Assembly: GCA_035289625.1 (NCBI GenBank)
Contig: DATDWP010000016.1
Coordinates: 11,871-75,870, forward strand
Source: an archaeon
GTDB taxonomy: Archaea; Iainarchaeota; Iainarchaeia; Iainarchaeales; Iainarchaeaceae
Direction: 5' to 3'
DNA: 64,000 nucleotides
The position numbers were made by a program, and so were the translations under genes. Position 1 is the first letter of the stretch, and every line of letters begins with the position of its first letter. The notes below the pieces were generated by a model, which worked only from the letters and a program-made list of their open reading frames with translations, made no database searches and was not told the DNA's origin. Of the stretch, positions 10,191-60,569 are shown in pieces.

Positions 10191-10441
10191 AATTAGAAAA
10201 ATGAAGAGTCAGGGAGTTAAATTCCTTTTTATTTTTCTTATGAATAACTAAAACCCTAAATCTTCCCTGTAAAATTTTTTCCCTAAAGCAATATTATTCT
10301 CAAACTCTAGAAGCCTTTTGTACCTATTCATAATAATCGTTGCATTAATACTTATTTTAAGTTTTCCGGCCAACATAACACTAATTTCTTGAAATTGCAG
10401 GAGGGCGGATTCGAACCGCCGAAGGCACTAAGCCAGCAGAT

Positions 10442-10576
10442 CTCTCAGACAGTTTTCAACCTAAAATTACACTTTTCTTTTTGGTCGAGCTTCCTTGCAG
10501 AACTTGTTCTGCGAGGCCTCGCAAAACCATTGGTTTTGCTAGGTTTCTTTTCTTGTTAAAGAAAAGAAAAAGGTCG
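10442..10576 (-). other. tRNA-Leu intron (135 nt), highly structured
   Basis: Lies between G37 and A38. Contains perfect hairpin 10544-10569 and palindromes 10497-10512 and 10521-10539. Confidence 0.8.
10489..10539 (-). repeat. Conserved double-hairpin module, copy 1 (inside the tRNA-Leu intron)
   Basis: Minus-strand GCAAAACC-AA-TGGTTTTGC GAGGCCTC GCAGAAC-AA-GTTCTGC AAGGAAGC. A second copy lies at 45272-45323 (+). Confidence 0.7.
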
Positions 10577-10803
10577 CTTGAGTCTGCCCCGTTTGACCGC
10601 TTCGATACCCCTGCAACAAATACCGTTTTGCTAATTGATTGTCCCGTGGCAAAGTATAAAAATCCTCTTTTGCAAAAAACCCTTCGCTTTTTTGGTTTTT
10701 TTATCAAAAATTTCTTCCCTTCCACGATTGTGGAAATACCAAGCGACGATCCCCGAAAAAGCGCGTGTTTAAATTGAAAGAAGATAGGTGTTAGTAAGGT
10801 GGG

Positions 10804-13700: not shown

Positions 13701-13755
13701 ACAAATAACATAGATGTTCACAATTTATAAACATAATGTTCACTAAAAATAAACA

Positions 13756-13938
13756 CGCGGGGGACGGGATTTGAACCCGTGAACCCTTTCGAGTAACAGC
13801 TAACTACCATCCAAACCAAATAAGAAAAGCAATTCATATTGCCGGGCTTTTTCTTTTGGTACAGCTTTTCTTTTGGGCCAAACCAAAAGAAAAGGTGTGT
13901 TAGCAGGCTGCCGCATTAGACCACTCTGCCACCCCCGC
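13756..13938 (-). tRNA. tRNA-Ser(GCU), class II, with 99-nt intron at 37/38
   Basis: Exons 13938-13901 and 13801-13756. GCGGGGG/CCCCCGC acceptor, GCA/UGC D stem, GCAGC/GCUGU anticodon stem, loop CUGCUA|A, variable arm UACUCGAAAGGGUUC, ACGGG-UUCAAAU-CCCGU T arm. Confidence 0.85.
13802..13900 (-). other. tRNA-Ser(GCU) intron (99 nt) with two polypurine/polypyrimidine hairpins
   Basis: Perfect 12-bp hairpin cttttcttttgg/ccaaaagaaaag at 13865-13894; imperfect hairpin at 13816-13859. Confidence 0.8.
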
Positions 13939-14184
13939 ATTTTAGGTGTTATATAAAAGTGCCAGGGTAAATTTAAAAGGTTTTAGAATAGGTAAACTAA
14001 ATTCTTTTATTGCCTCAATTTCAAACATAAAAAAATCTGTCTTGGATATAGGTCAATGGCTCACAAATTGAGGCAAAAGCAGGTGGCCCAAAACCGCAGC
14101 AAAGGCCTCGGTGACATAATAAAATATTTTTGTCTTATTTTTGTAAAACGAAGTTATGGTGCCCTGGCCATGCAATATTAGAGT

Positions 14185-45176: not shown

Positions 45177-45249
45177 AATTTACAGACTCTTTCTACTAAT
45201 TTACACTTTTTTGAGTCAAATTTATATTCTCTTTCTTTTTGGCCACGAC

Positions 45250-45357
45250 TTTGTTTCTTTTCCGCCACATTGCAAACCTTTCGGTTTGCGATGCCTCGCA
45301 GAACTTTTGTTCTGCAAGGAGGCTTTTCTTTTTCTTTGTAAGAAAAAGAAAAAAGTT
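45250..45357 (+). repeat. Structured repeat block next to tRNA-Ala: double-hairpin module copy 2 (45272-45323) plus polypyrimidine/polypurine hairpin (45323-45355)
   Basis: GCAAACC-TTTC-GGTTTGC GATGCCTC GCAGAAC-TTTT-GTTCTGC AAGGAGGC, then CTTTTCTTTTTCTT-TGTA-AGAAAAAGAAAA. Confidence 0.7.
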
Positions 45358-45363
45358 GTAGTT

Positions 45364-60510: not shown

Positions 60511-60569
60511 CACACTTTTCTTTTTAGTCAAGTTTTTTCTTTTCGTGTAATGAAAAGAAAAAAGTTGAG
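60511..60569 (+). repeat. Polypyrimidine/polypurine repeat block abutting the 5' end of tRNA-Ser(CGA)
   Basis: acacttttctttttagtcaag (19/21 identical to 10469-10489), then hairpin TTTTTTCTTTTTC-GTGTAAT-GAAAAGAAAAAAG, ending 5 nt before the tRNA. Confidence 0.7.

What the first reader, a model, noticed from the sequence alone, without database searches (positions are those of the whole stretch)
10396..10614. tRNA-Leu(CAA) split by a 135-nt intron that is longer than the mature tRNA and carries a sense-strand T5 tract
Read on the minus strand, exons 10614-10577 and 10441-10396 give a complete class II tRNA-Leu of 84 nt. The intervening 135 nt sit exactly at the canonical 37/38 site. The junctions can be drawn as a canonical bulge-helix-bulge. 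CUCA (nt 32-35) pairs with intron UGAG, the bulges are AG|C and AG|A, and intron GAC pairs with GUC. Most described archaeal tRNA introns are a few tens of nt, so this one is unusually long. It is almost entirely built of perfect hairpins. The intron begins CGACCTTTTTCTTTTCTTT, an oligo-T tract of the kind archaeal RNA polymerase can terminate on. This raises the question of whether the gene is transcribed whole or as two adjacent halves.
Basis: partly seen in the sequence, partly recalled or inferred. Interest (0 to 1): 0.6.

Follow-up and report, generated by a model that had tools for sequence, protein, structure and literature searches.

The report
Long repeat-filled intron in tRNA-Leu
This is a real leucine tRNA gene of a tiny groundwater archaeon (Iainarchaeum group) whose ordinary splice-out intron has grown to 135 bases by taking in a structured repeat. 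The same repeat sits beside many other tRNA and rRNA genes of this lineage, and nothing suggests the gene is made as two separate halves.

Summary
Exons 10614-10577 and 10441-10396 (minus strand) join to an 84-nt class II tRNA-Leu(CAA). The 135-nt insert (10576-10442) sits at 37/38 in a canonical bulge-helix-bulge (BHB).

The BHB outer helix changes by compensatory pairs across 22 related tRNA-Leu introns. The genome encodes one alpha4-type EndA, RtcB and aCPSF1.

The length has a simple cause. 103 of the 135 nt are one copy of a repeat: pyrimidine tract, hairpin partner, optional double hairpin, mirror purine tract. This copy is closer to the trailer of the genome's own tRNA-Ala(GGC) (91%) than to the orthologous intron of a congener (76%). 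Orthologous Leu(CAA) introns range from 0 to 135 nt.

Under a strict automatic criterion the repeat's hairpin lies next to the exon end in 35 of 35 scored cases. Two-module introns read like a trailer joined to a leader.

The U5-C-U4-C-U3 tract does resemble a strong archaeal terminator. However, the intron has no promoter-like motif, the halves are always adjacent and collinear, and several single-copy tRNAs carry the same tract. Transcription as a whole followed by cis-splicing is far more likely. No RNA data exist.

This scan has already reported the repeat family on this window and in other DPANN genomes. I re-tested its main claims here.

The parts
10655..10671 (-). Probable promoter. The TATA box TTTTTATA lies at 10662-10655 with an A-rich BRE-like stretch just upstream, about 41 nt before tRNA position 1.
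   Evidence: Read from the sequence. The same ...CTTTTTATACTT... block lies at the same distance in orthologues L002, L003 and L009. TTTWWA lies at -28 to -80 in 25 of 44 tRNA genes. The role is inferred.
10577..10614 (-). 5' exon, tRNA positions 1-37 (38 nt). It holds the acceptor 5' strand, the D arm, the anticodon stem 5' strand and the loop CUCAAG with anticodon CAA.
   Evidence: ARAGORN -i; cloverleaf of the joined exons.
10442..10576 (-). 135-nt intron at the canonical 37/38 site.
10572..10578 (-). 5' splice region: bulge A36 G37 | C (10578-10576), the outer BHB helix strand GAC (10575-10573), and the next C (10572).
   Evidence: The outer helix covaries among orthologues: GAC/GUC, GGC/GCC, CACC/GGUG, CACA/UGUG, AACC/GGUU, AGCC/GGCU.
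10558..10571 (-). Pyrimidine tract Y, T5-C-T4-C-T3. It is the first tract of the repeat module.
10544..10554 (-). Purine tract R1, the Watson-Crick partner of Y. It forms an 11-bp perfect hairpin of -9.1 kcal/mol.
10493..10543 (-). Optional double-hairpin insert of the repeat: two stems, each closed by CCU...AGG.
   Evidence: In an alignment of 23 copies, 16 pairs are predicted and 13 of them show compensatory changes.
10472..10489 (-). Linker CTCGACC plus purine tract R2 (10482-10472). R2 is the parallel complement of Y, that is, the mirror of R1.
   Evidence: In this copy 11 of the 14 Y positions are matched, so the third tract is shortened.
10451..10471 (-). Intron tail beginning TGTAA, the usual end of the module. 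Its 3' part (GAAAA, 10456-10452) can pair with the first bases of Y and so lengthen the outer BHB helix.
10441..10450 (-). 3' splice region: outer helix strand GUC (10450-10448), central helix strand UGAG (10447-10444), and bulge A G | A38 (10443-10441).
10396..10441 (-). 3' exon (46 nt): A38, the anticodon stem 3' strand, the long variable arm, the T arm, the acceptor 3' strand and discriminator A73. No CCA is encoded.

Best explanation
This is a working, single-copy tRNA-Leu(CAA) gene of an Iainarchaeum-type DPANN archaeon. It is probably transcribed as one precursor from a TATA box about 41 nt upstream.

The precursor folds into a canonical hBHBh' motif. The genome's single alpha4-type EndA cuts both 3-nt bulges and RtcB joins the exons. 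The 135-nt intron is released, probably as a circle.

The intron is long because an ordinary 37/38 intron has taken in one copy of a lineage-specific repeat. That repeat has a pyrimidine tract, its hairpin partner, an optional double hairpin, and a mirror purine tract. The T5 tract is simply the first tract of this repeat.

The repeat is copied or homogenised within the genome, between the parts of stable-RNA transcripts that processing throws away: introns, trailers, leaders and rRNA spacers. Its hairpin always lies against the exon end.

Shown here:
- the gene, the BHB and its covariation;
- the repeat membership, the orientation rule and the three-tract covariation;
- the presence of the enzyme genes.

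Inferred:
- transcription through the U tract (a U5 run is a weak intrinsic stop, and the tract is soon locked into an 11-bp hairpin that could hide it from aCPSF1);
- actual splicing;
- what the repeat does. My best guess is a tolerated or selfish structured element, perhaps an insulating or terminator-like hairpin. A true triple helix is unproven.
For: Gene and splice motif:
- ARAGORN -i calls the gene. The joined exons give tRNA-Leu(caa).
- Intron-less orthologues score 51-64 bits against Rfam tRNA.
- It is the only CAA gene found in a 94.6% complete genome.
- The canonical BHB lies within 1.4 kcal/mol of the MFE.
- In 22 intron-bearing tRNA-Leu genes of relatives the bulges and central helix are kept, and the outer helix changes by compensatory pairs.

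Enzymes:
- One EndA of 174 aa with N and C domains, RtcB and aCPSF1 at 833 bits.

Orthologue series:
- Leu(CAA) intron lengths at the same site are 0 (five genomes), 28, 39, 66, 68, 72, 74, 74, 83, 84, 107, 107, 126 and 135 nt.

Repeat membership:
- 103 nt of the intron match the trailer of the genome's own tRNA-Ala(GGC) at 94/103 by global alignment and 84% by BLAST. The orthologous intron of congener G002 matches at 76%.
- In a strict scan for perfect hairpins, 24 such hairpins occur in the genome; 19 lie inside tRNA introns or within 12 nt of a tRNA, one more lies 60 nt upstream of tRNA-Val, and two lie behind 16S and 23S.
- The Y tract matches its own R2 better than other copies' R2 (0.85 against 0.70; 0 of 20,000 permutations reach this). 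The mirror match beats the direct match in 24 of 27 copies.
- The double hairpin shows compensatory changes at 13 of 16 pairs.
- Orientation rule under the strict automatic criterion: 14/14 in this genome and 21/21 in relatives' loci.

Against separate halves:
- There is no TTTWWA in this intron and none in 11 of the 14 Leu introns of 60 nt or more (this one and 13 from relatives), whereas 25 of 44 tRNA upstream regions have one.
- T runs of 4 or more occur in 11 of the 15 introns that ARAGORN called in this genome.
- ARAGORN lists one gene each for tRNA-Cys, tRNA-Tyr and tRNA-Ser(GCU), and all three carry the same tracts in their introns; so does tRNA-Leu(UAA), which ARAGORN mislabels Val(tac) and beside which it makes one doubtful second Leu(taa) call.
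Against: There is no RNA evidence of any kind: no RNA run holds the locus, so splicing and read-through are inferred.

The U5-C-U4-C-U3 tract has the design that gave the highest termination efficiency in M. maripaludis (PMC8716108), and 33 of 44 tRNA genes here have a T run of 4 or more within 25 nt of their 3' end. This gene's own trailer has none for 120 nt. The strongest terminator-like signal of the locus therefore lies inside the intron.

The orthologue series is not rooted on a species tree, so growth of an old short intron is not formally separated from repeated gain and loss.

Copies within and between related genomes are not independent, so the permutation and orientation counts overstate the significance.

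This copy's third tract is shortened, and on its own it is not significant.
Confidence: 0.8

Rival explanations
1. The gene is made as two adjacent halves. The 5' half would end at the intron's U tract, the 3' half would start from a promoter inside the intron, and the two RNAs would pair through the BHB and be joined in trans, as in Nanoarchaeum split tRNAs.
For: The U5-C-U4-C-U3 tract begins 6 nt after the 5' splice site. Identical tracts occupy the terminator position behind ten other tRNA genes. aCPSF1 is present. Two-module introns (Leu(UAA), Cys) read like a trailer module followed by a leader module.
Against: There is no TATA-like hexamer in the intron and no conserved one in orthologous introns. 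The helix next to the BHB is 3 bp plus five more pairs (four A-U and one C-G), where known split tRNAs use a long complementary leader helix (PMC4033280). The halves are adjacent, collinear and on the same strand in all 17 Leu(CAA) orthologues, including ones with 0-, 28- and 39-nt introns. Introns without a module also carry T4-T5 runs.
Confidence: 0.06
2. The intron's U tract is a built-in attenuator. Part of the transcription stops inside the intron, so the repeat tunes or regulates how much tRNA-Leu(CAA) is made. The hairpin (or a third strand) would decide between stopping and reading through.
For: The tract has the same design as the best aCPSF1 terminators (PMC8716108), and aCPSF1 is present. 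The tract can either stay single-stranded or be locked in an 11-bp hairpin of -9.1 kcal/mol. The arrangement is kept in 12 of 17 Leu(CAA) orthologues.
Against: No data on 3' ends exist. The same module sits in trailers, leaders and rRNA spacers, where attenuation of that gene makes no sense. Intron-less orthologues do without it.
Confidence: 0.1
3. The locus is a dead or dying tRNA gene disrupted by a repeat insertion, and UUG is read by tRNA-Leu(UAA) instead.
For: The Rfam tRNA model does not find the locus. There is no terminator-like T run behind the gene.
Against: The exons are intact and 73-78 of 84 nt identical to orthologues. The BHB is canonical and its outer helix covaries. The promoter block is conserved. 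tRNA-Leu(UAA) carries a 135-nt intron of the same kind, so the argument would disable both.
Confidence: 0.03
4. The intron hosts a trans-acting small RNA, for example a guide RNA like the box C/D RNA in the H. volcanii tRNA-Trp intron, and that is why it is long and structured.
For: The double hairpin is conserved in structure with many compensatory changes. Excised archaeal introns are often stable circles (PMC7714728).
Against: The intron has no C box (RUGAUGA), and no Rfam family matches it. The same module lies in trailers, leaders and rRNA spacers and in both orientations relative to the genome. The stem sequences of the double hairpin differ freely between copies, so there is no conserved guide-like single strand.
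Confidence: 0.05

Closest known systems
Canonical archaeal BHB tRNA introns, with the 103-nt intron of Haloferax volcanii tRNA-Trp as the classic long example (PMC7714728)
   Same: Position 37/38, a strict hBHBh' motif, and an EndA type that needs that strict motif. The intron is longer than the mature tRNA.
   Different: The intron is 135 nt and holds no box C/D RNA. Most of it is a repeat that also occurs outside introns. It carries a terminator-like U tract.
Intron families spread among different tRNA genes of Thermoproteales ('large-scale tRNA intron transposition', Fujishima et al. 2010, as summarised in PMC4033280)
   Same: Related intron sequences occur in different tRNA species of one genome, and paralogous copies are more alike than orthologous introns.
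   Different: Here the shared unit also sits in 3' trailers, 5' leaders and behind 16S and 23S rRNA. It has a fixed orientation relative to the exon end. The introns are at the canonical site and are cut by an alpha4-type EndA, not at many non-canonical sites.
Split and tri-split tRNA genes of Nanoarchaeum equitans and Caldivirga maquilingensis (PMC4033280)
   Same: A BHB lies at the exon boundary. The sequence after the 5' half looks like a trailer, and in two-module introns the sequence before the 3' half looks like a leader.
   Different: The halves are adjacent and collinear, no internal promoter motif is present, and there is no long complementary helix to hold two RNAs together.
Class II purine-motif intrastrand triplex repeats of bacteria (TMECO / BoxC; Holder et al. 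2015, PMC4666352)
   Same: The same order of tracts on one strand: pyrimidine, purine, then mirror purine. Both are small dispersed repeats that often occur as inverted pairs.
   Different: The archaeal repeat is A/T-rich rather than G/C-rich, is tied to stable-RNA gene boundaries and introns, and may carry an inserted double hairpin. No folding experiment exists for it.
Archaeal U-tract terminators read by aCPSF1/FttA (PMC8716108)
   Same: Two runs of four or more U close together, and the factor gene is present.
   Different: The tract lies inside an intron that must be transcribed, and it is the 5' arm of a perfect hairpin.

Membership tests
Archaeal EndA-spliced (BHB) tRNA intron | Removing the insert leaves a complete tRNA. 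| tested here: met
   The joined exons are called tRNA-Leu(caa), 84 nt, with a cloverleaf MFE. Intron-less orthologues up to 78/84 identical score 51-64 bits against RF00005.
Archaeal EndA-spliced (BHB) tRNA intron | hBHBh' motif: two 3-nt bulges separated by a 4-bp helix and flanked by helices, with the cut sites inside the bulges. | tested here: met
   The motif is CUCA/UGAG with bulges AG|C and AG|A, the anticodon stem and GAC/GUC. It lies 1.4 kcal/mol above the MFE. The outer helix covaries in 22 introns.
Archaeal EndA-spliced (BHB) tRNA intron | The splicing endonuclease and RNA ligase are encoded. | tested here: met
   One EndA of 174 aa with PF02778 and PF01974; RtcB at 515 bits.
Archaeal EndA-spliced (BHB) tRNA intron | The intron is actually removed, shown by junction reads, the mature tRNA or a circular intron. 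| not testable with these tools
   No RNA run holds the locus.
Split (trans-spliced) tRNA gene | Each half has its own promoter. | tested here: not met
   There is no TTTWWA in the intron, and 11 of 14 long Leu introns lack it, against 25 of 44 tRNA upstream regions that have it. This is a motif test only.
Split (trans-spliced) tRNA gene | A long complementary leader/trailer helix next to the BHB joins the two RNAs. | tested here: not met
   The helix is 3 bp, then a 2x2 internal loop, then five pairs (four A-U and one C-G).
Intron-encoded box C/D guide RNA (tRNA-Trp type) | C (RUGAUGA) and D (CUGA) boxes with a guide segment. | tested here: not met
   There is no C box in 10442-10576, and no Rfam match at E of 10 or less other than chance hairpin hits.
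Shared or transposed tRNA intron family | Similar intron sequence in different tRNA species of one genome. | tested here: met
   The introns of Leu(CAA), Leu(UAA), Cys, Tyr, Ser(GCU) and Pro(CGG) all start with the same module. The intron core matches trailer copies at 78-91%.
Class II intrastrand triplex motif | The tract order is pyrimidine, purine, mirror purine on one strand, and the tracts change together. | tested here: met
   Own-copy match is 0.85 against 0.70 for other copies, with 0 of 20,000 permutations reaching it. The mirror match beats the direct match in 24 of 27 copies. This particular copy matches at only 11 of 14 positions.
Class II intrastrand triplex motif | A three-stranded fold actually forms, as DNA or RNA. 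| not testable with these tools
   This needs CD, NMR or melting experiments. The A-rich composition argues against a stable purine-type triplex in RNA; an earlier check in this scan (e1-2593558) priced that reading at 7/100.

The most novel reading that the evidence does not exclude
The repeat could be a functional boundary element of stable-RNA genes. It would be a hairpin plus third tract, forming a three-stranded fold on the transcript or on the displaced DNA strand, that marks and protects the discarded flank next to each exon end.

On this reading the long introns of this lineage are literally a 3'-trailer module fused to a 5'-leader module. These genes would then be snapshots of the passage between separately expressed tRNA halves and intron-containing genes. 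The intron's U tract might still stop part of the transcription.
Probability: 0.1. Interest if true: 0.85.

Novelty: new variant of a known kind. Interest (0 to 1): 0.55.

Why it matters
How archaeal tRNA introns arise, grow and move is an old open question. It bears on the debate over whether tRNA genes began as halves.

This gene gives a clean, datable series. The same intron site in close relatives is empty, short, filled by one bare repeat module, or filled by a module plus a nested double hairpin. The nearest relative of the intron's filling is the 3' trailer of another tRNA gene in the same genome.

This shows that sequence flows between trailers, leaders and introns, and that a strict-BHB endonuclease tolerates large structured cargo.

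It also poses a concrete puzzle for archaeal transcription. A sequence with the design of a strong U-tract terminator sits inside several tRNA genes for which only one copy was found, so either it is read through or something masks it.

Tried and rejected
- Default ARAGORN and Rfam, at gathering and at E of 10 or less, do not report a tRNA at the locus. This is a limit of models that cannot span a 135-nt insert, not evidence against the gene.
- The Rfam hits inside the region (rivX, mir-4679 and others) are chance matches to the A/T-rich hairpins, far below their cut-offs.
- No RNA holder is listed for the locus, so expression, splicing and 3' ends could not be examined.
- In two other metagenome runs the Logan contigs do not cover the intron, and the 'joints' seen are tRNA-Leu genes of other community members with other inserts. 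This is not informative.
- A box C/D RNA in the intron is rejected because there is no C box.
- An internal promoter is rejected at the motif level.
- The sigma-70 promoter and terminator scanner was not used, because it does not model archaeal signals.
- Searches for a description of such a repeat in DPANN, Iainarchaeota or Diapherotrites tRNA introns, or of mirror-repeat or triplex elements at archaeal tRNA genes, found none. I also could not find a citable length range for all archaeal tRNA introns.
- The third tract of this intron copy, taken alone, is not distinguishable from shuffles. The triplex-type pattern is a property of the family, not of this copy.

Full report
**What is there.**
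On the minus strand, 10614-10577 and 10441-10396 are the two exons of a class II tRNA-Leu with anticodon CAA. The 135 nt between them (10576-10442) lie exactly between tRNA positions 37 and 38.

Default ARAGORN and the Rfam tRNA model miss it, as they miss every long-intron tRNA of this genome.

Joined in silico, the exons give an 84-nt tRNA-Leu(caa) with a 7-bp acceptor stem, a long variable arm and A73. Intron-less orthologues in related genomes are 73-78 of 84 nt identical and score 51-64 bits against Rfam tRNA.

No second tRNA-Leu(CAA) was found in the 94.6% complete genome. aCPSF1 is 78-86% identical to that of Candidatus Iainarchaeum andersonii and the nearest other Iainarchaeum/Diapherotrites genomes, so this is a DPANN archaeon of that group.

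**The splice motif.**
The junctions form a canonical hBHBh'. In order: the anticodon stem, the bulge A-G|A38, the 4-bp helix CUCA/UGAG, the bulge A36-G37|C, then GAC/GUC, continued after a 2x2 internal loop by five more pairs. A fold constrained to this motif is only 1.4 kcal/mol above the unconstrained minimum. The precursor as a whole folds better than all 200 shuffles.

In 22 intron-bearing tRNA-Leu genes from relatives the two bulges and the central helix are kept. The outer helix changes by compensatory pairs: GAC/GUC, GGC/GCC, CACC/GGUG, CACA/UGUG, AACC/GGUU and AGCC/GGCU. This is the best available evidence, short of RNA data, that the motif is used.

The genome has one EndA of 174 aa with both domains, which is the alpha4 type. 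That type is the one described as needing a strict BHB (PMC5829648), and a strict motif is what is found here. RtcB is present.

**Why the intron is so long.**
The intron starts with the pyrimidine tract T5-C-T4-C-T3 (Y, 10571-10558). Y pairs with a purine tract (R1, 10554-10544) in a perfect 11-bp hairpin. Next comes a double hairpin (10543-10493), then a linker, then a second purine tract (R2, 10482-10472). R2 is the complement of Y read in the same direction, that is, the mirror of R1.

This is not peculiar to the gene. Five other tRNA genes of the genome have introns of 66-138 nt that begin with the same module:
- Leu(UAA), which ARAGORN mislabels Val(tac);
- Cys;
- Tyr;
- Ser(GCU);
- Pro(CGG).

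The module also lies directly behind ten other tRNA genes and directly in front of seven, and behind the 3' ends of 16S and 23S rRNA.

103 nt of the Leu(CAA) intron match the trailer of the genome's own tRNA-Ala(GGC) at 94/103 by global alignment, or 84% by BLAST. They match the orthologous intron of a same-genus genome at only 76%. Copies are therefore exchanged or homogenised within a genome.

**The orthologue series.**
At the same 37/38 site, tRNA-Leu(CAA) genes of relatives carry the following:
- no intron in five genomes;
- a 28-nt plain hairpin;
- a 39-nt miniature module;
- 66-84 nt, being one bare module;
- 107 nt, a module plus unrelated sequence;
- 126 and 135 nt, a module with the double hairpin nested between R1 and R2.

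The window's copy is the longest seen. Two of the intron-less genes carry the module in their 3' trailer instead. The series is not rooted, so I cannot formally order the states. The simplest reading is an ordinary intron that keeps taking in, and losing, repeat sequence.

**Re-test of what this scan had already said about the repeat.**
Earlier follow-ups on this window (e1-4562302, e1-4562303) and on other DPANN genomes described a 'triplex-type' repeat at tRNA boundaries. I checked the main points independently.

- Across 27 copies with 21 different tract patterns, a copy's Y tract matches its own R2 better than the R2 of other copies (0.85 against 0.70 of the tract length). None of 20,000 permutations reaches the observed value. 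The mirror match beats the direct-repeat match in 24 copies, with 3 ties.
- In 23 copies of the double hairpin, 13 of 16 predicted pairs show compensatory changes.
- The copies are related, so these numbers overstate independence.

The tract order is that of a class II intrastrand triplex motif (PMC4666352). Whether any three-stranded fold forms is untested. The tracts are A-rich, which is unfavourable for a purine-type triplex, above all in RNA. An earlier check in this scan priced that reading at 7/100 (e1-2593558). I therefore treat the triple helix as a pattern, not a structure. In this intron the third tract is shortened (11 of 14 positions) and is not significant alone.

**An orientation rule.**
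In every case scored under a strict automatic criterion, the hairpin lies next to the exon end and the third tract lies away from it. Modules in trailers and at the 5' end of introns are in sense orientation. Modules in leaders and at the 3' end of introns are antisense. This holds 14 of 14 times in this genome and 21 of 21 times in loci of relatives.

The four two-module introns seen therefore read as a trailer module followed by a leader module. They are Leu(UAA) in three genomes and Cys here. The Leu(CAA) intron has only the trailer-type half.

**Whole transcript or two halves.**
Two U runs of four or more are the design that gave the highest termination efficiency with aCPSF1 in M. maripaludis (PMC8716108), and the genome has aCPSF1. 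In addition, 33 of 44 tRNA genes here have a T run of 4 or more within 25 nt of their 3' end, while this gene's own trailer has none for 120 nt.

Against separate halves:
- The intron holds no TATA-like TTTWWA, and neither do 11 of the 14 Leu introns of 60 nt or more (this one and 13 from relatives). By contrast, 25 of 44 tRNA upstream regions have one at -28 to -80.
- The helix beside the BHB is far too weak to hold two RNAs together.
- The halves are adjacent and collinear in all 17 Leu(CAA) orthologues examined.
- T4-T6 runs occur in 11 of the 15 introns that ARAGORN called in this genome, including ones without a module.
- ARAGORN lists one gene each for tRNA-Cys, tRNA-Tyr and tRNA-Ser(GCU), and all three carry the same tracts in their introns; so does tRNA-Leu(UAA), beside which ARAGORN makes one doubtful second Leu(taa) call.

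I conclude that the gene is transcribed through the tract and spliced in cis. My odds are about 0.8, with 0.1 for partial attenuation at the tract and 0.06 for true halves.

A plausible but untested reason for read-through has two parts. A U5 run is a weak intrinsic stop. About ten bases later the tract is locked into an 11-bp hairpin of -9.1 kcal/mol, out of reach of a factor that binds single-stranded U tracts.

**What could not be done.**
No public RNA run holds the locus. The DNA of the intron is confirmed only in contigs of runs that may be the source of the assembly. I found no paper describing this repeat or long introns in Iainarchaeota.

**Verdict.**
The observation and its core reading are right. 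The intron is a normal BHB intron carrying a copy of a lineage-wide structured repeat, which explains both its size and its T tract. The gene itself is ordinary. The repeat, its orientation rule and the terminator-like tract inside several tRNA genes for which only one copy was found are the interesting part, and this scan has met the repeat before.

Noticed in passing
window 13755-13939 (minus strand): tRNA-Ser(GCU) has a 99-nt intron at 37/38 that starts with the same pyrimidine/purine hairpin module. ARAGORN -i finds it; default ARAGORN and Rfam do not.
   Followed up: partly
window 45227-45362 (minus strand), just 3' of tRNA-Ala(CGC): A full module with the double hairpin lies in the 3' trailer, starting 8 nt after the tRNA. 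It matches the Leu(CAA) intron core at 84%.
   Followed up: yes
window 60515-60563, just 5' of tRNA-Ser(CGA): A leader-type (antisense) module ends 7 nt before the tRNA. A TATA-like motif lies upstream of it, so the distal pyrimidine tract may fall between TATA and the transcription start. If so, a DNA-level role would be more likely than an RNA one.
   Followed up: partly
G000 contig C6:38823-39041 (outside the window): ARAGORN's 'tRNA-Val(tac)' is really tRNA-Leu(UAA). It has a 135-nt intron made of two modules in opposite orientation (trailer type then leader type). tRNA-Cys (C10:14564-14772, 138 nt) has the same design.
   Followed up: yes
L071 (C18:36620-37250) and L070 (C18:32850-33550): Sense-oriented modules lie about 57 nt after the 16S rRNA 3' end and within about 20 nt of the 23S rRNA 3' end, so the repeat is not limited to tRNA genes.
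   Followed up: partly
L022 2740-2780 (G000 C6:75994-76034, minus strand): The rtcB gene is interrupted by about 41 nt right after the codons for PDAHWGY. Removing the insert restores ...HWGYGAPVG.... This looks like the BHB mini-intron in rtcB that this scan reported in other DPANN genomes.
   Followed up: partly
L067 (G000 C5:5650-5850): Four or five tandem pyrimidine tracts with gtcaa-type linkers end in a leader-type hairpin. It is followed by sequence with no tRNA or Rfam call. This may be an unrecognised stable-RNA gene or a disrupted tRNA.
   Followed up: no
whole genome G000: ARAGORN with introns finds no tRNA-Phe(GAA), Glu(CUC), Gly(UCC), Pro(UGG) or Arg(CCU). Rfam finds one extra tRNA at C10:97891-97967. 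Some tRNA genes are probably hidden by unusual introns or lie in the missing 5%.
   Followed up: no
window 10256-10395 (minus strand, 3' of the tRNA): The trailer of tRNA-Leu(CAA) has no T run of 4 or more for 120 nt, unlike 33 of 44 tRNA genes of the genome.
   Followed up: yes
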